Source: Vermamoeba vermiformis
Lineage: Eukaryota
DNA length: 64,000 bases
NCBI GenBank assembly: GCA_045837725.1
Contig: JBEWZL010000209.1
Location: 372,001-436,000 of the forward strand
Reading direction: 5' to 3'
Shown: one piece after another, positions 15,758 through 64,000 of the stretch
How the letters are laid out: every line of letters begins with the position of its first letter
How positions within the stretch are numbered: the stretch's first letter is position 1
Position numbers and translations under genes: made by a program
The notes under the pieces: generated by a model
The model's database searches: none
Told to the model about the DNA's origin: nothing
What the model saw: only the letters and a program-made list of their open reading frames with translations

Positions 15758-15988
15758 TTATTTTACCTTGGCGGGCTTTTCGGTATTTTTGTCATCTGCC
15801 GCTTCTTTGTTTGTAGTAGCATTATTGTTGTCCTGCTCCGATTTTTGGGCTTGGGTATTGCCTTTATTAGCTTCTTTGTCGTCACCCGCAGCGGATTTAG
15901 CGGCTGCATCTGATTTTTTTGCAGATGCCCTCCTGAATGAAGGCATGCTGCCCAGTGACTTCTTATTCAACTCCTTATCAGAACTCAT
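15758..15988 (-). CDS. Small hydrophilic Lys/Ala-rich hypothetical protein
   Basis: ATG-initiated 76 aa ORF with coding-like composition in AT-rich flanks. Confidence 0.5.
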   Translation of the reverse strand: MSSDKELNKKSLGSMPSFRRASAKKSDAAAKSAAGDDKEANKGNTQAQKSEQDNNNATTNKEAADDKNTEKPAKVK

Positions 15989-16219
15989 ATTAGGAAATAT
16001 TATTAATTAATATGAGGCGTGCCGGAGTTGTGTGAACGAGTTGAATAAAATAACCTGGATAATAAAATTAGTATTGTTCATAAACAAATCAAGTAGATGG
16101 CCAAAACTGATGTTAAAAATAGCGAACATTCATAGGAGGGTAAGTTCATTAAATTTAGACCGGCAAATGAGCCCGATCTGACGTTGTTAATGAAGTTGTC
16201 AGATCTCCGTTTATTTTAT

Positions 16220-16943
16220 CTTCCCCGTCAGAAGCTTGAGGACGGAGTTTCGACCGGAGTTATAATTTCAATCAAAATTAATTATATTGGGGGTTTAAAC
16301 TTTCACAAGGTGACTATATCGTTATAGTACCCTATTTGTACTACTTTCTTTATTAATTTTCGTCAGATTCAACCTTCTAATTCAACAAACGCGGATCTGG
16401 TCGTTTTTTTTAGGGAGGCAAAATTTGCCGCCATTTAAGTAAGACCTCTGTTACAAAGCAAGTAATCGGGCGGTTGGCATATATATATTAATAGTTATTT
16501 AAATATCTATATTTTGAACCGAAAGGTCCTACTTTTTTTCGATCCGGTAAAAGTTAAACTCAAAATTAGCGGATCTGACCCAAAAAAGAGGGTCAAAAAA
16601 ATGTGATTTTGCTTATATGAAAAAAAAAAGGGTATGTTTTCGGTTCAGATTGTACATATATGATATTATATCGTAGTTCTTGGTTTTAATTTCCCAATAA
16701 TCATTGCTGTAATGAGGACACTCGTTCGGAAGCAACGATATTTTGTGCCCTCAATTTTGCGACTATAATTAGAATGCAACCACTTGAGTACCAGTTGCAT
16801 TCCGCTAAAATAATACGAACCATTATCTCCATCATTAAAATATAATTGCTAATAAAATTGGTGCTTAAATTGCCCTCTTAATAAAATTTAATAAGAAATT
16901 TAACTCCGGTCGAAACTCCGTCCTCAAGCTTCTGACGGGGAAG
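16220..16943. mobile_element. MITE (724 bp) with perfect 43-bp TIRs and TTAT flanks
   Basis: CTTCCCCGTCAGAAGCTTGAGGACGGAGTTTCGACCGGAGTTA at 16220-16262 and its exact reverse complement at 16901-16943. TTAT lies immediately outside both ends; the interior is non-coding. Confidence 0.9.
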
Positions 16944-17110
16944 TTATTATCTTTCTAATATTTTATTTTTATCAGTGCTGGTATGCCTCAATAAGGTACT
17001 TGTCAAACACGACTGTACCAACGAGTGAAAGAATTTTTAAAAATGTTTGCAAGTCACGCCATTATTGCTCCAAACCAGATGGCGCAATTTTTAACGCGTA
17101 CAGGCTAAAT

Positions 17111-20100
17111 ATGCATCCTACTAGCGTAGCAGTAAGTACAACATAAATAGTGTTAGTAGTTTAAGCGTAGTGCTGAACGATTTTATGGAGATCTTACAAG
17201 ATCTGAGATTAAACGGTATTAATTGACTATTTTAGGCGAAAAATGTATTAAATAACCAACCATATCAAAAACTGGCCTTAATTTCAAAGAAGCCTATCGA
17301 AAGCAGCCTTATCAACGCAACGGATCCACAACAAAAATCCGATCCCCGATCTGCCTGCTCTACCAAGCTGACATACCACAATACTAATATGGAAGTCGTA
17401 TTAATCGACATGGATTTCCTAGAAAAGATTCATGTCTCAAAAGCATGCCTAGAGTCCATTCAAAAGTTCAACACGTTATTTTTTTTGCACATGCTCAGAA
17501 TCGACGCGGATCTACCAGCAAATCTGTTCATTATACCAATCCACGCCATAGTATACCGCGACAATAAGTATCAAGTGGATAAAGAGAAGATAGACGCATT
17601 ATTTAAGACTGAAAATGCCTTGGAAATAATGAAAAACGTCTTAGCGAAAATTAACGGCGAAAAAGCAGATTTAAATTCGAAGAAATTGACCGCAGAAGAT
17701 GTAGCAAAGATAGACGATATTAATTACTATAATTCAAATGATATGGTCACATTCGAAGGACTCAAAAGAGTAGAACAACTCAATATTTTCGAATCAATGC
17801 AAAATAACGAAGGAATATTCAGAAAACCAACCGCAGAGCAAGTTTCCCGCGCAAAAATTGCTGCAAAGGAACCGGATACCAAAAAAAGAAATGTTGTCAC
17901 TGTCGCATCCTCAAAGAAAAATTGGAGATCTACTTATGATACCGCTAGTTACCCACCCCAGCCTGAACAACCAATAGGCGTCGAGCTAGGCAAAGAATTG
18001 CAAGACAAAATCAGTCCTGCGTACAGATCTAAAGCTGAAAAAGCAATGGAAGAAATTCGCGGCGAATTGATTGGTCGTGTCGCCTTCGCACCGTATAATG
18101 AACGCCATTATACTCTTAGGTACACACAACTTATATCTTTTGTTACATGTACGCTTTAGCCAATCCATATTGAAATGTCTCCTCAGATCGGATCCGCACT
18201 TTGCAATTATCTCTTTCGTGATATCGATCTATATACTCAAGATTTATACCGATCCAATGCTAATATACTTTTCTTATAGAGATGTTGAATTTTTGCGAGT
18301 CCCCACATCCAGTTTTTTGGTACGCGGAAAGCATCCGATGTAAGAACTACAAAATTGCATTATAAGTTACTCTTTATTAATACCAAATACTTAATATAGA
18401 GTATATGAGACGTTCCATCGCCATTATATGTTCCGTTGCGAGCAACAAAAGATCGAGTCACAAGTACGACAATTTGACCAGCCATTATTGCTGCCATTAG
18501 AAGACGTTAGAAGTAACTTGCCAGTGCTGTTTTATAAATTCTTGCAATCCTATCAGCCCATGTTGTTGAGCAAAGCAGAATTGAGCAAAGTCTTGCAATA
18601 CACTTTTTCATCCCCGGAGTAAGTCAGATGCGACATCGATCTAAAATCCTAATTATTATTCAATTTATTTGTATTAATCATATTTATAATGTAGATCATA
18701 TTCGTTGTATCAAAATCGAGGCATGGCAATCCACGACTCGGGAGATCCAAAGCGAGCTCATGCGATTTTTCCTGAGCTGACCGAAATATTCCCAAAGGTA
18801 CTATTAACCATAATATGCAAACGTATATATACTAATATGCTATATAGAGCATTGATCCAGGAATGCTGTACTTTGGCGAGTTCTGTAAGGATCTGCTACG
18901 CAGTATTTGGTTCTGGACCCAAGTCCCGAAGATTGAGTCTATATTCAACATCAACTATAAGGACAGAATATTATTGAAACAAGTAAGATCATATTATTAA
19001 GGTAATTACCCGAATCAGTTCTAATTGTCGCATTTCAGATCTTCTATCACCACTCGTTCCTGAATGGATTTGAGACTGGCAATAAGTTAGCGCAGCTCGG
19101 TGACCTGTTTTCATACTTGGTTACCGTACAGCTTACTTTTTGCAAGTCATTCACGGATAAGTCTACGATCAAGCATTTTGTCGCTTACAGGTACTTCCTT
19201 TGAACGCTAAAATTATGAAATCGATAATATCAGCGTCTATAACTAAATAGCTGTATAATTACGAGTCAAATTACCTACGCGATGGACTTCGAATATGGAG
19301 CAATTTTGTTCGCGTTGAAAAAGTTTGACCAAAATTCTTTTATTAGGGACCGATTAATTACAAGACGAAAGCTTTGGGATATCGCAGACTCTTTAAATTT
19401 GGTTCAATACGCTTTTATTGGATCGAAAGTGTTCAATGCTGATGCCACTCAGATCCAACAGATCAACGTTGAATTTTTATGCCGAATCTTGGGTACGTGA
19501 GAAATCAAATACAATTATTAGTAGCTCATATATTGTAGGCTCTATTCTCATCGAACAAGGCGTTGATACGGGCATCAAAACGGTCTTAAAGTTCTTCCAA
19601 CATGAAATTCCTTATTTGAAAGAATACAGCCTGGATTCGACTCTTCAAATCCCTTCTGCGGGTAATTATGTCGCATTAGCTATCGTATCAAAGCGCATTC
19701 TAATTTTCTGAAAGAATCGCCGGATCTGCTTGAGAAACTCGAAAACGCAGAAAAGCAGCTCAATTACAGCTTCCCTGGACAAACCAAGGGAAAAATCATT
19801 TATGTACGTCCATACGTTATCATAATAGATTTATTTTAACGAAAACTAACGAGTAATAGGTCCTAGACAACCAACAAAAATATGAGTCTCAAATTTTAGA
19901 ATGGCTCGGCGATGCTGTACTAAGAGTAAGAGTCATAAACAAGTATAATTATACATATTAATAATTTTATTATTTAGATCGCTAACAGCATGTACCACAT
20001 TAACACGATCCACAACCAAAATTTAGCCGCAATTCTTGATATCGGTAACTCGAACAGCTTCTTGGCTAGAGTACGTACCATGATTCATATTGTATGTAAT

Positions 20101-20477
20101 ATTGATATTTTTTCCTAATTAGGTAATGCAAGAATTATTCAATTACAAAGTAACATCGTTAAAATCGTTGAAAACTTCCGCGGATGCGTTCGAAATGGTC
20201 GTCGGTACGTCTCGCGATTGCATCATAGATTTATAAGTACTTATATTTCTATACAGCCGTTTTATATTTGGAAGCGGGCTATTCAGAGGTTGAAAAATTC
20301 GTGCATAAAATTATGGTATTATATGAGCCTAAAGTCGAAGAATGGAGCCAACAATTGGTGAAGACAGCAAGCACTAACACGAATAAGTTCACTTTCTTAG
20401 CCCCTCCTGAAGACAAATCATCACTTTCAACCACTTCTAAGAAAACTACTCGGATCGTACATTCAAAATCGAGATAA
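17111..20477 (+). CDS. Dicer-like RNase III (platform, putative PAZ, RNase IIIa, RNase IIIb; no helicase or dsRBD seen)
   Basis: Platform-like LESIQKFNTLFFLHMLR; IESIFNINYKDRILLKQIFYHHS...NKLAQLGD (IIIa); EKQLNYSF...QILEWLGDAVL...KTSADAFEMVVAVLYLEAG (IIIb). Confidence 0.8.
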
Positions 20478-20658
20478 AAACCAGTATTCAACTTTAACTA
20501 ACATATCTTGAGTTGCTCGTGGATATAGCAAGTAGAATCGTATTAATTTTGACATTTCAATTTTGTAGCAGTAATTCACCGATAATTCGAAAACACAAAT
20601 CAATTTCGAGAATAACTCAAAAACCTTCATTTCATCCTTTAAAGATCAGCGATGCAAC

Positions 20659-22428
20659 ATGGATAAGATATTAAAGGTAAAGTGGCATATCAATACTAAA
20701 CTTGCTAATCTATTACTCGAGGTTTGTCTCTTGGGTAGATGCGGTGTTGGCAAATCCAGCTTTTTACGCCGACTCACGAAAGGATCTTACAGCCAATTGG
20801 AGCAACCAACTGTCGGAGTAGACGTGAGTACTATATTTCTAGTATAGCAAAATAATCCTGCTTTAGTTTAAGGCTGTAAATACTCATTACGAGGGAAATG
20901 AAATTAAAGTTCATTTATGGGACACTACGGGCAATTGGAGGTAAATAACATGTAAAAGCAAATCACGATTATAACAATGATTTTTCCGTAGATTTACCGA
21001 AATTGTCGAATTGCATGTAAGCGGCGCAGATGGAATTCTATTCTTTGTCGATGTAACGGATCCGTCTTCGTTGCATGATCTTCAAGCTAGATGGGTGCCT
21101 ATGGTACAAAAGATGGCACCTGATATGCCGAGACATCGACAAGTCATAATTGGTCTGCGAACTGACTTGAAAAAACAAGTTAACGAAATTTCATGTCGCG
21201 CAGCAGAAAAATTCGCGGCGAACTTAGGAATGCCTTACATTGAAGCTAGTGCCTTAAAAAACATTAACATAAAGGATTCCTTCGCGCTCTTGGTCGCGAA
21301 TATGTATGAATACTCACCGTATGTCACAAACCGAATCTGATCCTTTTTTTCGATAGGAACTCAAAAACGCCAATCTATCACCTGGCGCCAAGTATTACTA
21401 ACAATAAGAATACTTGCATAGGTACGACGACGTATTACCATTTCTATCGAACTAACGTCTCATAGAAATTCCGATGGATGAAATCTCTATTATTTCAAAA
21501 CTTGGCGATGGAAATTACGGCGAAGTTTTTCGCGCTGAGTGGTGTGGCCTTGAAATCGTACTTAAAAAATTCACAGTGGACACCGATATGGAAGAAGTTA
21601 ATAAGTCAACGTAAGATCCAAAACTCTTACCGAACCAATTCTTACTTGTATTTATAGACTGTTGTTACACAACCATATTGTACGAGCAATGGGCATAGCA
21701 CGAGACGCCAAGACGAATGAAATCATGCTGATCATGGAATTCATGCAGCACGGCTCACTCGAAGACTTGCTCTATCCGAAACATCCAACATGTCAAAAAG
21801 TGATACTCGAGTGCCAAGACGTCATTCAGATAGCTTTGGATATCGCGACAGGATTGAAATATCTTCACTCGCAAAGCCCGAAAATAATCCATCGAGGCTT
21901 AAGTAGCGCAACTATTCTGGTAAGTCACCTACTGTGCTGTCAGATATAACGCACTAACGCTTTGTAGCTCGATAAACACAGACGAGCTAAAATTGCCAAC
22001 TTTGGAAGTATGAAAGTTCACAGCGCGAACTCTGCTGCCACAGCTGTGACCGATGAACCAGGATCTATTGCGCCTGAAGTACGAGCTGAAGAAGAATTCA
22101 ACGAGAAAGCGGATATCTATTCGTAAGTCATTATGATGAAGTATATTACCTATTCTTATTATTGTATTTTAGCTTGGGAGCGCTGTTGTTTGAAATGTTG
22201 ACCAGCAGCAGATTGCCGGCACTGGATGCAAAAAGCAGATCCAGAAGGATTAAGCAAAACATCACCGACAAAGATTTTCAGCGCTTGATACTGAACTGCT
22301 GCAAGAAAGATTCGACGCGCAGACCGAGCATTGAACGCTGCATTGACGCTTTGCACAAAATGCAAAGAAAAAATACCACTATTGCTCTCAGCAATAACGA
22401 GGAAGAACCACCGTTGATTGAACACTAG
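20659..22428 (+). CDS. Rab/Rho-like small GTPase fused to a TKL-type pseudokinase
   Basis: GRCGVGKS, WDTTG, GLRTDL and EASA are spliced in frame to LGDGNYGEVF, IVLKK, HRGLSSATIL, KIANFG, APE, KADIYSLG. Confidence 0.8.
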
Positions 22429-59288: not shown

Positions 59289-59552
59289 TGTAGTATAGAT
59301 TTTAAACGCGATAGATGTGTAATTTATGCATTTTAATACCACATTTTAAATTCGTCCAATGCAAGCCTTGAACTTCCCTAAGTAAGGACCGAGTTAGTTC
59401 AAATAATATTAGTAATGTTATATTATATATTAGTGGGACAGAGTGTTCATCGGCAGGAATATTTCTCAATTCTTTGAGGTCTCCTTATTTGACTTTTGGA
59501 TCACAAGACGGAACCTGAAATGTTTTCCACGTCCATTTCGTTCATTTCAACG

Positions 59553-61806
59553 ATGTATTCTCAGAGTACAGCACCTCAGAAGATTCACGTTCGGAATCTG
59601 TTCAAGATCTTCGTTCCTTTACGAGGTGAGAACAATTTCAGCGTCAAACTGAACACAACGCCGGTGTTTGGGGTTGTAGTCCACGATAAAAATGATGCAA
59701 ATATATCTTATGAATATCAGCTTCATATGCTTCTTCGAGAGCGCAGTTACACGCAAGGAATTGAAACTGAATCTGAAGCGGTTGGATGCTTCAGTTGGGC
59801 CAAAAGAAATCCTGTATTAGTGCAAACAGAACAAAATAGTAATAATATCGAAGGAATACTGCTTAGAGTGAAGGTAAATCATGGGATCTTCGATTTTCGA
59901 AAGACAAGTCGACAGTTGATCAGAATCGTTGTCAACCTGAAAGTTGGAAACCAATATGTTAGGCAAGGCACGAGTACTTTATGCAAATTATTGCCGAAAA
60001 AGCGTAAAGCAGACAAAACCAGCGAGAACACCGAAGGTAAAATCCTAAAATAATTTTTATTTATTTTAACTACCTTATTTTCCCAAATTGAACGACGGTA
60101 TACTCTAGAAACCACCAGGTGTTTCAATATTTAAAGCTGATAATTATTATTGTGTAGCGGAGATTGCGATCTCGTGGCCGGATGGGCAAACTCTCGACGC
60201 CCAACAATATCTTCCAGTGGCCCAATCAGACATTAATAATATTAGTACACATCATTTCGATTCAACTATCGAAGTTGATGAAAGCCCTGAAGTTCGTCAG
60301 TTCAGCATGACGAATCTGTTCGAACAACCTTCGTCAATGCTAATGCAAGAAGAAGTCGAAACCACTGATATTTTTACCACGCCGTAAGCATTTTACGTTG
60401 TTTCTCGATAAAACTGATCGTATGGCGACGTAGAGCAAGCGAAGAAAATGAACAGCACGATGAGCAATACATGGTACTCTACAACGGCAATGCAGAGGTT
60501 GTGGGCAACTTCAGAGCACTCAACTTCTACAAGGCATCTGATATCAATATTAAAGAGGACGTCAGATTGCTCATGGAAGGTATGTGGATAGACATTGTGA
60601 CACGCGTCTTTTTTGACACTTTGTGTTGACGCGCTGCTTATGGGCTCGTTTGTATATACTGTAGAGCATTGCTAACGGGTAGTCCTTATAGATAATAACC
60701 CACGTGACGTCCTTCTGAAGATCTCAGGAGTGTCGTACAAGTTCAAACCAGGCACAACACACTCCACTCAACGACGATTCGTTGGTTACATTGCACAACA
60801 AATCGAAAGTGTTGTTCCTGAAGCAGTTCAGTTGATCGATGGCATTCTTCATGTGGACTACGAGTCATTGATTCCCTATCTCAGTGAATCGATCAAGCAA
60901 AACTTCACTGACATTAAAGGACTCAAGTCAGACACGCAGAAGCTCGAAGCACTCTTGACCAATCTCTACGAGGAGTTTATACAAGGTGAAAGCAAAGACA
61001 AGTCAAAAGTTACATTCAAATCTAAGCTACGACCAGAAAAGTCACGTGTCAACGCAATCACAGGATTGGTCAAATCCAAGTGGCAGTGGTTTGCAGGATT
61101 GTTATTTTTAGCATTAATAGGCATCACTGTTGCGCTTAGTGTGGGTTTGGTTGCTAACTTCAGAGATCAACCAGACAAACCTGAACATGCCCCAAGTTTA
61201 CCAGATTACGGGAGTCCAGAAGGCTATTTGGAAGGCGTGGCAAGAACAGCATTAAAGACATTTTACGAATCAATGAATGGAGATAACTGGATAATCAAGA
61301 CGAACTGGATGAGCAATACTTCGGTGTGCGAATGGTACGGTGTCACATGTGAAGGACCATTTGAAGAGGAGCATGTCACGGAAGTTCGTCTATCGAATAA
61401 TAATTTGACAGGAGGATTGCTAGGACAGTATTTAATGTACAAAGTAGCGCCGTTGAAAGTTCTCGACTTGAGCAAAAACAACATTTTGTTCAGTATTCAC
61501 CAATTGTCACCGTACATCACGCACTTGAACTTGTCAGAGAATCAAATATCAACTGACATCAAAGTGTTCAATCAATTGACGTACATTAGGTCACTCAATT
61601 TGGCCCACACTCGCGTTTACGGAGATTTTCAGCTGTTACCGAGTCAATTAGTCCGATTGAAAGAGCTCAATTTGTCGCACACTTCTATAACGACTATTGC
61701 GCGGATGGATGGCGAGTACGAGATTGAAGTGTGCGATTGGCACGGGACTACTTTGCACTGTCCGATTCCTGCTTGGATCGGCAAGTGTGGCGGAACCTGC
61801 GTTTAA
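59553..61806 (+). CDS. MYRF-like membrane-tethered factor: N-terminal domain with NLS, Peptidase S74/ICA autocleavage domain, coiled coil, TM, LRR ectodomain (copy 1)
   Basis: Four in-frame exons: ...LLPKKRK; GNAEVVGNFRALNFYKA-SDINIKE; GYIAQQIESVVPEAV..VDYESLIPYLSESIKQ; TM; ALKTFYESMNGDNW...CEWYGVTC; LxLxxN repeats. An in-frame ATG also exists at 59520. Confidence 0.85.
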
Positions 61807-62150
61807 CATTATTGTAACCTTTTGAATAAATAATTCTGTATTCTTAGACACCTTATGCATATATTGGCCTTTCCTTCGGATCCGCTGGCTCAACAATGTG
61901 ATTCGAAACATGTTTCGTAAGGTTCTAAGAATGGGATGCAGATGTCGATTACTTAACCTGCGATAAATTGAGGTTGGAATGGACCACTAGAACTTAAGCC
62001 GCGAGAACAATGTTAGTATAACGAATAGAATCAAAAAATCTGCCAGCTCGCAAAATTGAAAAGTCTCGTAACAGGACTGGGATCCGTTATGTGAATCAAA
62101 TGTCCTGGCCCATCGTTAAGTTCACGAAAAAAAATCCTTTCGAAATCAAA

Positions 62151-64000
62151 ATGTATTCGCAGACAACAGCACTGCAGAAAATTCACGTTCGAAATCTGTT
62201 CAAGATCTTCGTTCCTTTACGAGGCGAGAACAATTTCAGCGTCAAACTCAATACCACACCAGTATTTGGCGTTGTAATATACGACAAAAATGATGCAAAT
62301 ATATCTTATGAATATCAGCTTCATATGCTTCTTCGAGAACGCAATTATGCGCAAGGAATCGAAACTGAATCTGAAGCGGTTGGATGCTTCAGCTGGGCCA
62401 AAAGAAATGCCGTATTATTTCAAACAGAACAAAATACAAATAATATCGAAGGAGTTATGCTCCGAGTGAAGGTAAATCATGGGATCTTCGATTTTAGAAA
62501 GACAAGTCGGCAGTTGATCAGAATTGTTGTGAACTTGCACGTTGCAAACCAATACGTCCATCAAGGCACGAGTACTTTATGCAAATTATTGCCGAAAAAA
62601 CGAAAGGCAGATAAAAGCAGCGAAAATACCGAAGGTAAGTAATTTAAAATTAACTAAATTCAAATAAAATTGCGTAGGTTACAATTAATTTGATTCATAT
62701 CTATATTATTCGAATAATAATTATTAGAAATTAATTTTCTTTGTTCAGCTGAAGTTGCGATCACGTGGCCCACGGATGAAACTCCGGAAAGCGAGCAACA
62801 CTATCCTGCAATCGATCAACCAGCCAATAATATAAGTCCATATTCCGACTCGGCTATTGAAGTCTACGAAAGTCCTGAAGTTAGTCCGATCCGCATGCCA
62901 AATCTGTTCGCACAACCTTCCTCGTCCTCGATGCTTATTCAAGAAGTAGAAATGTCTAATGTTTTTACCCAGCCGTAAGTATTATAGAATAGCATACTTA
63001 GAGGCATAATAGCTTTTAAAATATGAAACGCAGAGCGAACGACAATAATAGCGAGTGGATGGTGCTGTACAACGGCAATGCGGAAGTCGTGGGCAACTTC
63101 AGAGCACTCAACTTCTACAAGGCATCTGATATCAATATTAAAGAAGACATTAGACTGCTCATGGAAGGTTCGTTGCATTTTTAAGAACTTTTAGACGCGT
63201 GTCTTTTTGACACTTGGGTTTGACATGCGTGCACTTGTGCGCGTTAATTTTACCGTCAGAACAGAGCTAACGCGTAGTACTATTAGATCATAATCCTCGC
63301 GAGGTGATTTTGAAGATCGATGGCGTTGAATACAAGTTCAAAGACAATGTTCAGCACTCAACAAACAAACGATTCGTTGGTTACATTGCACAACAAATCG
63401 AAAGTGTTGTTCCTGAAGCAGTTCAGTTGATCGATGGCATTCTTCATGTGGACTACGAGTCATTGATTCCTTACCTCAGTGAATCGATCAAACAGAACTT
63501 CACTGACATTCAAGGCATCAAATCAGATACTCAGAAACTTGAAGCAGTGTTGAACAATCTTTACGAACAGTTCACCACAGGCGAAAGCAATGCAAAGTCA
63601 AAGACGAAGTCAAATACAAAGTCACGACCGATGAAGGAAAAGTCACGTGTCAATTCCAACACTTTGACAGGATTGGTCAAATCCAAGTGGCAGGTGTTCG
63701 CAGGATTATTGTTATTAGCGGTGATTGGCGTCACTATCGCACTTAGTATTGGCTTAGCATCAAAGTTTAGAGAACAACAGCCGGACGAAGCTAAACCGGT
63801 TCCAAGTACCTACCCGCATTACGAACCGCCAGACGCCTACGGCGAAACAGACGCAAGAACTGCATTAAAATTGTTCTATCAAACAATGAACGGAGATAAC
63901 TGGATAATTAAGACGAATTGGATGAGCAATACTTCGGTGTGTGAATGGTACGGTGTTACTTGTGACGGACCATTTGAATACGAACGCGTTACAGAAGTTC
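62151..64000 (+). CDS. MYRF-like ICA-TM-LRR protein (copy 2, runs off the window)
   Basis: Tandem paralog with the same intron positions, near-identical N-terminal and ICA domains, a TM and the LRR N-cap. Confidence 0.85.

What the first reader, a model, noticed from the sequence alone, without database searches (positions are those of the whole stretch)
17111..20477. Minimal Dicer-like protein with a catalytically degenerate RNase IIIa domain
Seen: no helicase, DUF283 or dsRBD, a Giardia-like minimal layout. RNase IIIb keeps all four acidic residues (LEWLGD; ADAFE). RNase IIIa reads LAQLGD and VEFLC, so both catalytic Glu are lost and one Asp is changed to Glu. Established: each Dicer RNase III domain cuts one strand. 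Inference: a dsRNA nickase, or an enzyme needing a partner, which would imply non-canonical small-RNA biogenesis.
Basis: partly seen in the sequence, partly recalled or inferred. Interest (0 to 1): 0.7.

Follow-up and report, generated by a model that had tools for sequence, protein, structure and literature searches.

The report
Half-active Dicer, probably sent to mitochondria
An amoeba-like microbe carries a small, conserved relative of the RNA-cutting enzyme Dicer that keeps only one of its two cutting sites and begins with what looks like a mitochondrial address tag, so it may nick one strand of mitochondrial double-stranded RNA, although neither the location nor the activity has been tested.

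Summary
The domain observation holds, but the start is wrong. Spliced contigs support 13 of 14 introns. The gene runs 16110-20477 (15 exons, 852 aa), 55 residues longer than reported. A sister-species protein (P0005) has the same start and joins.

The layout is PAZ-connector-RNase IIIa-IIIb, with no helicase, DUF283 or dsRBD. It is colinear with amoebozoan compact Dicers that keep all eight catalytic acids. Here IIIa has lost E547 (A), D622 (E) and the essential E625 (C); IIIb keeps all four. The second IIIa motif is dead, and IIIb intact, in three species. Both domains are under purifying selection (dN/dS about 0.09 and 0.05).

The missed N-terminus looks like a mitochondrial presequence: 8 basic and 1 acidic residue in 42, a predicted helix and an R-3-like site. 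The relatives lack it.

Best reading (0.45): a Dicer paralog retargeted to mitochondria as a one-strand RNase III. Main rival (0.3): a cytosolic or nuclear one-armed Dicer.

One-armed Dicer-like proteins have precedent (Paramecium Dcl1). My searches found no mitochondrial PAZ-Dicer. Location and activity are untested, and no genome was available.

The parts
16110..20477 (+). Whole gene, 15 exons, 852 aa. Exons: 16110-16139, 16976-17131, 17236-18119, 18280-18339, 18400-18618, 18695-18797, 18848-18982, 19039-19190, 19347-19492, 19539-19661, 19715-19803, 19860-19925, 19978-20070, 20123-20204, 20257-20477
   Evidence: Open frame with all introns GT-AG. 13 of 14 introns are supported: 10 as joints, 2 as joints with letters between, 1 as a loose end. 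Intron 17132-17235 is supported only indirectly (contig ends) and by P0001/P0005.
16110..17071 (+). Presequence-like N-terminus, aa 1-42 (exon 1 and the first part of exon 2), with an R-x-Y motif at aa 38-40
   Evidence: 8 R/K and 1 D/E in 42 residues, first acid at residue 28, hydrophobic moment 0.53; P0005 has 9/1 and 0.45; the 4 canonical relatives have 2-6 basic and 3-11 acidic. Helix predicted at 2-19 with low pLDDT.
17072..18054 (+). aa 43-335: presumed platform region plus a low-complexity insertion
   Evidence: Aligns to the relatives' N-terminal region only in global MAFFT. A local profile test was not significant: 96 of 300 shuffles scored as high.
18055..18797 (+). PAZ domain, aa about 336-484
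   Evidence: Pfam PAZ E=0.0012, below cut-off; Piwi PAZ chains E 0.004-0.04; colinear in hhalign. Not modelled confidently (pLDDT<50).
18848..18925 (+). Connector (ruler) helix, aa about 485-510
   Evidence: Helix 485-514 in the model; aligned with the canonical relatives.
18926..19618 (+). RNase IIIa, aa about 511-655, catalytically degenerate: A547 (19090-19092), D551 kept, E622 (19471-19473), C625 (19480-19482); auxiliary Asn and Lys positions read R and Q
   Evidence: Same in P0005. Second motif also dead in L001; L001 does not reach the first motif.
19747..20333 (+). RNase IIIb, aa about 681-805, with E713, D717, D773, E776 plus N747 and K769 kept
   Evidence: All six identical in the window, P0005 and L001; 105 of 125 residues identical to L001, dN/dS about 0.05.
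20334..20477 (+). 47-aa basic, Ser/Thr-rich tail where the relatives have a dsRBD
   Evidence: No dsrm hit, whereas P0013 and P0023 have one; 33 of 47 residues identical to L001; unstructured in the model.
16217..16946 (.). About 730-bp element with 68-nt terminal inverted repeats inside intron 1 (probable non-autonomous DNA transposon)
   Evidence: 87% complementary arms; TTAT on both flanks; the arm sequence occurs only at these two places in the window.
19311..19330 (+). 20-nt motif in the intron that splits RNase IIIa, identical in the orthologous intron of L001
   Evidence: the other 6 of 7 compared intron pairs share at most 7 nt.

Best explanation
This is a fast-evolving paralog of the amoebozoan-type compact Dicer that now works as a one-strand RNase III, probably inside mitochondria.

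Shown by sequence or model: PAZ, connector and two RNase III domains that pack as the usual intramolecular pair; IIIa has lost its metal-binding glutamates; IIIb keeps all of its own; the dsRBD is gone; a basic N-terminal extension was gained.

Inferred: the extension is a cleavable import signal, cut near residue 40. PAZ holds the 3' end of a duplex or hairpin, and the connector sets a distance. Dead IIIa acts as a scaffold and RNA-binding surface (it carries basic residues where the auxiliary Asn was). IIIb cuts only the strand carrying the 5' end.

The product would be a measured nick or 5'-end trim of a structured mitochondrial transcript (rRNA or polycistronic precursor, or sense-antisense dsRNA), not an siRNA duplex. 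The substrate is a guess.

My odds per step: IIIa dead 0.95, IIIb active 0.8, mitochondrial import 0.6.
For: Gene model.

Ancestry: the only full-length eukaryotic relatives among 19 hits in 1.84 billion representatives are 3 compact Dicers, named as Nematostelium, Protostelium and Thecamoeba proteins. hhalign gives probability 98.7 over aa 333-795.

Fold: the model core is confident (pLDDT about 52-88 over aa 500-810). It superposes on human Drosha 6v5b at Z 23.7, rmsd 3.3, 312 residues, and on Giardia Dicer at Z 17.8, rmsd 3.5, 288 residues.

Selection: 25 of 29 coding differences examined in strain contigs are synonymous. dN/dS against L001 is 0.09 for IIIa aa 570-635 and 0.05 for IIIb; synonymous sites are near saturation, so the values are rough.

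Presequence: it matches the features described for Dictyostelium presequences (PMC3578813, passages). Of 3860 internal 42-residue windows from this window's long ORFs, 57 meet the charge criterion, 31 also meet amphipathy, and 0 also have the R-3-like motif.

Mechanism from papers: each domain cuts one strand, and IIIb cuts the 5'-phosphate arm (PMC7827160, passages). One-site RNase III heterodimers nick (PMC3867540, section 12). A predicted mitochondrial RNase III for rRNA maturation is listed in Andalucia (PMC7050145, passages).
Against: No localisation predictor or experiment was available. The criteria were set after seeing the query, so those frequencies are optimistic.

The extension is 38 of 44 identical to P0005 (86%), no more variable than the rest of the protein, whereas presequences usually diverge faster (recalled). 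One of the two R-3-like sites (R17) is K in P0005.

The ATG at 16110 has C at -3, while Met56 (17111) has A at -3, and an out-of-frame ATG lies at 16097. An untagged isoform is therefore possible. The boundary between extension and platform is not established.

IIIb is itself very divergent: Pfam score 21.3 against a cut-off of 27, a long branch, and loss of the QAFTHxS-type segment and of the signature Arg. It may be weak. With no dsRBD, a partner may be needed.

The organism's lineage, its other Dicers and Argonautes and its mitochondrial genome are unknown.
Confidence: 0.45

Rival explanations
1. Cytosolic or nuclear one-armed Dicer in a small-RNA pathway. It nicks the 5' arm of hairpins or dsRNA, and Argonaute or a second nuclease finishes the job, giving strand-biased small RNAs. 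The basic N-terminus is then an RNA-binding or nuclear-targeting segment, or is skipped by starting at Met56.
For: Dicer ancestry and a retained PAZ. Nicked hairpins can load Argonaute in human lysates (PMC12632780, passages). [quoted passage not shown] The N-terminus is as conserved as the body, and Met56 has the better start context. Unchecked notes from this scan report dead-IIIa/live-IIIb Dicers in other lineages.
Against: The extension is absent from 4 of 4 canonical relatives, and its composition fits a presequence with no clustered basic patch. The spliced transcript and P0005 include it. No second Dicer-like gene was detected in the window.
Confidence: 0.3
2. Non-catalytic or barely catalytic dsRNA-binding factor, like chloroplast RNC1 or the ciliate pseudo-Dicers. 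It stabilises an RNA structure (splicing, ribosome assembly) in mitochondria or elsewhere, and the IIIb acids are kept for metal or RNA binding.
For: Extreme divergence of both domains (branches of 4.4 and 3.4 changes per column, against 0.4-1.2 for the end branches of the relatives), loss of the dsRBD and a remodelled start of IIIb. Precedents: RNC1; Paramecium Dcr2/3 and Tetrahymena Dcr1.
Against: All six IIIb catalytic positions are invariant in 3 of 3 species while IIIa kept 1 of 6. IIIb is the more conserved domain against L001 (84% versus 70%). In the cited pseudo-enzymes both sites are mutated.
Confidence: 0.15
3. It still makes double-strand cuts. Either IIIa works with a rearranged site (D551 and E622 holding metal), or two molecules bound at opposite ends each nick one strand.
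For: Two carboxylates remain in IIIa, and E622 and C625 are invariant in 3 of 3 species, so these positions are under selection.
Against: The lost residue corresponds to E110/E117, which coordinates both metals and is essential. The register is the same in the pairwise, profile-profile and multiple alignments. The model pairs IIIa with IIIb within one chain. Dimerisation was not tested.
Confidence: 0.1

Closest known systems
Amoebozoan compact Dicers: EukProt proteins of Nematostelium gracile (P0013), Protostelium nocturnum (P0016) and Thecamoeba quadrilineata (P0023), and one unnamed EukProt protein (P0026)
   Same: Colinear PAZ-connector-RNase IIIa-IIIb, no helicase; 20-22% identity overall in global alignment; hhalign probability 98.7.
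   Different: They keep all eight catalytic acids and a C-terminal dsRBD-type region, and start with an acidic or neutral N-terminus. This protein has a dead IIIa, no dsRBD, a basic extension of about 45 residues and much longer branches.
Giardia intestinalis Dicer (PDB 2FFL)
   Same: PAZ plus two RNase III domains without helicase or dsRBD; structural match Z 17.8, rmsd 3.5, 288 residues.
   Different: It has two metal-bound catalytic sites and makes about 25-bp products. No presequence is known to me (recalled).
Paramecium Dcl1; Paramecium Dcr2/Dcr3 and Tetrahymena Dcr1
   Same: Natural Dicer-like proteins with degenerate RNase III domains; Dcl1 has exactly one (PMC2647294).
   Different: In Dcl1 the second domain is the dead one. 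Dcr2/3 and Dcr1 have helicases and both domains dead. Their functions were undetermined in that paper.
Trypanosome editosome KREN1-3 with KREPB4/5
   Same: Mitochondrial RNase III pair with one live and one dead site, proposed to cut one strand (PMC3867540). This is the best functional analogue.
   Different: Separate chains, zinc finger and PUF domains, guide-RNA directed, no PAZ; no sign of specific relationship (RECC1 chain Z 9.1, rmsd 3.2, 113 residues).
Chloroplast RNC1; mitoribosomal mL44/mL57
   Same: Organellar RNase III-fold proteins with degenerate sites. RNC1 clusters were the top Atlas look-alikes at 0.87-0.88, a lead only. Mitoribosomal chains match at Z 11-14.
   Different: RNC1 has both sites silent. 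mL44 has one RNase III domain (recalled). Neither has PAZ. Pfam RM44_endonuclase does not hit this protein.
Human DICER1 single-domain mutants
   Same: Show that a Dicer with one impaired domain yields nicked hairpins (PMC12632780).
   Different: Disease lesions affecting IIIb activity; here the loss is in IIIa, fixed and selectively maintained.

Membership tests
Dicer (PAZ-containing tandem RNase III) | Two RNase III domains in one chain forming an intramolecular pair | tested here: met
   Pfam Ribonucleas_3_3 E=1e-12; model aa 493-817 superposes on Drosha and Dicer cores, Z 23.7 and 20.0. The model was built from an alignment containing such proteins.
Dicer (PAZ-containing tandem RNase III) | PAZ domain and connector helix upstream of RNase IIIa | tested here: met
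   Sequence evidence only: Pfam PAZ below cut-off, Piwi PAZ hits, colinear profile match. The fold of PAZ was not modelled confidently.
Dicer (PAZ-containing tandem RNase III) | Platform domain | tested here: inconclusive
   Local profile score not above shuffles, 96 of 300 as high; hhalign probability 0.1.
Dicer (PAZ-containing tandem RNase III) | Both active sites with four acidic residues | tested here: not met
   IIIa A547/D551/E622/C625; IIIb intact.
Dicer (PAZ-containing tandem RNase III) | Makes 21-25-nt duplexes with 2-nt 3' overhangs | not testable with these tools
   Needs an enzyme assay or small-RNA data.
Canonical helicase Dicer | N-terminal helicase, DUF283, C-terminal dsRBD | tested here: not met
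   No Pfam hits; start bounded by a divergent gene at 15988 and by P0005.
Amoebozoan compact Dicers | Best full-length homology and colinear architecture | tested here: met
Amoebozoan compact Dicers | Groups with them in a tree | tested here: inconclusive
   A 20-row single-domain tree leaves both domains unresolved on very long branches.
Mitochondrial matrix protein with a cleavable presequence | N-terminal basic, hydroxylated, acid-poor amphipathic segment with an R-2/R-3 site | tested here: met
   by my own post-hoc criteria; features taken from PMC3578813. No trained predictor was run.
Mitochondrial matrix protein with a cleavable presequence | Actual import and processing | not testable with these tools
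   Needs microscopy, an import assay or N-terminal proteomics.
RNC1-type silent tandem RNase III | Both catalytic sites mutated | tested here: not met
   IIIb intact in 3 of 3 species.
KREN/KREPB editosome nucleases | Single RNase III domain per chain with a zinc finger, acting as a heterodimer | tested here: not met
   Two RNase III domains and PAZ in one chain; no zinc-finger Pfam hit. The resemblance is functional only.

The most novel reading that the evidence does not exclude
An RNAi-pathway Dicer was duplicated, given a mitochondrial presequence and reduced to one active site. It became an end-measuring single-strand RNase III for mitochondrial RNA processing: a single-chain, Dicer-derived counterpart of the trypanosome KREN/KREPB pair, or the first sign of a small-RNA pathway encoded for the mitochondrion.
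Probability: 0.45. Interest if true: 0.8.

Novelty: new variant of a known kind. Interest (0 to 1): 0.62.

Why it matters
If import is real, this would be a PAZ-bearing Dicer recruited into an organelle. I found none in print. One search (Dicer + mitochondrial targeting sequence + PAZ + RNase III) returned 0 papers, and the listings showed none by title or abstract start; the library lacks most subscription journals.

It would show RNAi machinery being reused for organellar RNA processing, and it would point to an unknown structured substrate in amoeba mitochondria.

Whatever the compartment, it is a compact, naturally evolved and selectively maintained test case for what a dead-IIIa/live-IIIb Dicer does. 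It could also serve as a possible end-measuring RNA nickase. If the N-terminus is not a targeting signal, the finding drops to one more half-dead Dicer paralog, of moderate interest.

Tried and rejected
- My first gene model started at 17111 and used an acceptor at 19250. It was rejected: spliced contigs show the upstream exons and a 156-nt intron 19191-19346, and L001 has a 61-nt intron at the same place and phase.
- No genome is held, so other Dicer, Argonaute and RdRP genes could not be surveyed. A six-frame profile scan of the window found no second Dicer-like gene.
- No RNA holder was listed on record. The runs are 'RNA?' by guess, but their contigs lack the introns. I laid 4 of the 9 listed runs. 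The raw-read run X7 gave only 19 reads, all under 95% alike, and was not used as evidence of expression.
- The single-sequence structure prediction was useless (mean pLDDT 32). With a 15-row alignment only the RNase III core was confident.
- The profile search with A1 returned only P0001, and the P0013 search returned only 3 EukProt proteins; both were candidate-limited.
- The first metagenome scan found no relative.
- ESM Atlas: the whole protein gave leads under 0.9 only; residues 1-62 gave no usable hit.
- The domain tree was unresolved. Platform homology was not significant.
- Lineage look-up: 1 of 10 window ORFs was in the collection, without a name. 'Amoebozoan' is therefore an inference from the best hits.
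- Rfam found nothing in the window.
- The 156-nt intron folds no better than shuffles (z -0.31). No pairing partner for its 20-nt motif is shared with L001 in the part that L001 covers; the best window match (11 nt at 17088) lies outside it.
- mL44-like and RNC1-like identities were rejected on architecture.
- No complex prediction was run, as no binding is claimed.
- Two papers I wanted (a presequence predictor; T. brucei DCL2) were not held.
- A notebook entry says 26 of 29 synonymous; the recount is 25 of 29.
Full report
GENE MODEL. The window is intron-rich eukaryotic DNA, about 39% GC. No genome is held for it. Four of nine listed runs were laid on 16000-21500. Contigs from three of them lack the introns and support 13 of 14: ten as joints, two as joints with letters between, and one as a loose end. 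The fourteenth (17132-17235) is bracketed by contig ends and is contiguous in homologous proteins. The model has 15 exons and 852 aa from an ATG at 16110. A search with exon 3 found a spliced 796-aa JGI protein, P0001 (80% identical over exon 3). Its cluster holds an 851-aa Logan protein, P0005, with the same first ten residues and the same exon joins. A divergent gene starts at 15988, 121 nt upstream, so helicase exons have no room. Of the 40 differences listed (22 more were not shown), 29 lie in the coding sequence and 25 of those are synonymous. One in-frame 3-nt deletion is seen in three runs.

DOMAINS. Pfam gives RNase III (E 1e-12) and a sub-threshold PAZ, and no helicase, DUF283 or dsRBD. 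Solved Piwi PAZ domains match aa 322-420 at E 0.004-0.04. Among 19 hits in 1.84 billion representatives, three are full-length eukaryotic proteins, named as Nematostelium, Protostelium and Thecamoeba; a fourth was added. All have PAZ and two RNase III domains with eight intact acids, and a dsRBD-type C-terminus (Pfam dsrm in 3 of 4). P0005 aligns to their profile over aa 333-795 with probability 98.7. The N-terminal third does not align significantly. An AlphaFold model from a 15-row alignment is confident only for aa about 500-810. There it superposes as an intramolecular RNase III pair on Drosha (Z 23.7, rmsd 3.3, 312 residues), mouse Dicer (Z 20.0, rmsd 3.5, 298) and Giardia Dicer (Z 17.8, rmsd 3.5, 288). 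A domain tree could not place either domain, as both sit on very long branches. The organism is probably an amoebozoan; that is inferred from these hits and not shown.

ACTIVE SITES. The four metal ligands are E40, D44, D107 and E110 in Aquifex RNase III, and E110 is essential (PMC3867540, passages). In IIIa these positions read A547, D551, E622 and C625 in the pairwise, multiple and profile-profile alignments. The auxiliary Asn and Lys positions read Arg and Gln; these are invariant or near-invariant in the relatives, and their catalytic role is recalled, not taken from a call. IIIb keeps E713, D717, D773, E776, N747 and K769. A third, more distant species (L001; 68% nucleotide identity over about 4.2 kb, syntenic with the downstream GTPase gene) has the same dead second motif in IIIa and an intact IIIb; its contig does not reach the first IIIa motif. 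Against L001, IIIb is 105 of 125 identical (dN/dS about 0.05) and the covered part of IIIa is 46 of 66 (about 0.09), with synonymous sites near saturation. IIIa is thus a maintained pseudo-domain, not a decaying one.

THE MISSED N-TERMINUS. Residues 1-42 have 8 basic residues and 1 acidic, the first acid at position 28, a hydrophobic moment of 0.53, and R-x-Y/L motifs at 17 and 38. P0005 has 9 and 1 and keeps the motif at 38. The four relatives have 2-6 basic and 3-11 acidic residues and no such motif in their first 43 residues. These are the features described for amoebozoan presequences (PMC3578813, passages). Among 3860 internal windows of this organism's long ORFs, 57 met the charge test, 31 also amphipathy and 0 all three. 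I set those tests after seeing the query, so they overstate the case. Against the reading: the segment is as conserved as the rest of the protein (38 of 44), the first ATG has a weaker context than Met56, and no trained predictor was available. I put import at about 0.6.

MECHANISM. Each RNase III domain cuts one strand; in Dicers IIIa cuts the 3'-overhang arm and IIIb the 5'-phosphate arm (PMC7827160, passages). One-site heterodimers nick dsRNA, and the trypanosome mitochondrial KREN/KREPB pair is proposed to work this way (PMC3867540, section 12). The most likely activity is therefore: PAZ anchors a 3' end and IIIb makes one measured cut in the opposite strand. In mitochondria that would suit trimming or opening of a structured precursor; a predicted RNase III for rRNA maturation is listed in the Andalucia mitoproteome (PMC7050145, passages). 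The substrate is a guess. The rivals are a cytosolic one-armed Dicer feeding Argonaute (nicked hairpins can load, PMC12632780, passages), a non-cutting binder like RNC1, and residual double cutting.

COMPARISON AND NOVELTY. Helicase-less amoebozoan Dicers, some with PAZ, are published (10.1101/2023.10.19.562841, passages; PMC5056781, passages; supplements not seen, and the preprint's may list proteins like this one). Dicer-like proteins with one or two dead domains are published for ciliates (PMC2647294, passages). Unchecked notes from this scan report dead-IIIa/live-IIIb Dicers elsewhere, so that part is a recurring theme. By descent this is a Dicer. It fails the two-active-site test, so I file it as a Dicer-derived variant. 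The possibly new element is mitochondrial targeting of a PAZ-Dicer, which I did not find (listings only). Passages of PMC10328071, PMC13547706, PMC10405411, PMC12699882, PMC8138440 and PMC5455965 added no such case.

VERDICT. A real, spliced, conserved gene with a confirmed dead IIIa, an intact-looking IIIb and a previously missed presequence-like N-terminus. New variant of a known kind; interest 0.62, or 0.8 if mitochondrial import is shown.

Noticed in passing
window 19311-19330; L001 39-58: A 20-nt stretch in the intron that splits RNase IIIa is identical between the window and the distant species L001, while the other 6 compared intron pairs share at most 7 nt and synonymous sites are near saturation. 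It is single-copy in the window, with no fold signal. Possibly a splicing-control element; retaining this intron would stop translation in the middle of IIIa in both species. Unexplained.
   Followed up: partly
window 16217-16946: Intron 1 is 836 nt, against 46-160 for the other 13, because it holds an element of about 730 bp with 68-nt terminal inverted repeats and TTAT flanks. It is probably a non-autonomous DNA transposon. It would form a long stem in the pre-mRNA just after the start codon.
   Followed up: partly
window 15988-16110: Only 121 nt separate this gene's start from the start of a divergent minus-strand gene with long K/E-rich stretches and no informative Pfam hit, which implies a shared bidirectional promoter.
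   Followed up: no
window 20283-21460: One spliced contig of run X1 runs from the last exon of this gene through the downstream Ras-family GTPase gene. The adjacency is kept in L001. Overlapping UTRs or read-through; a contig does not show a single transcript.
   Followed up: no
window 19251-19346: An unused-looking in-frame acceptor at 19250 would add 32 residues inside RNase IIIa. No listed joint supports it, and L001 has no room for it.
   Followed up: partly
window 59493-60053, 60676-61806, 62022-62642: Two near-identical ORFs of about 190-200 aa without a Pfam hit flank an ORF with a Peptidase_S74 domain, a hydrophobic segment and leucine-rich repeats. This recalls MYRF-like self-cleaving membrane proteins (recalled, not tested).
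   Followed up: no
P0013, P0016, P0023, P0026: These EukProt proteins form a family of 686-839-aa Dicers with PAZ, two intact RNase III domains and a dsRBD-type C-terminus but no helicase. It spans three named amoebozoan genera outside the dictyostelids.
   Followed up: partly
P0025: A 480-aa bacterial-type protein with two RNase III-dsRBD units in tandem. In the first unit one motif Asp is replaced.
   Followed up: no
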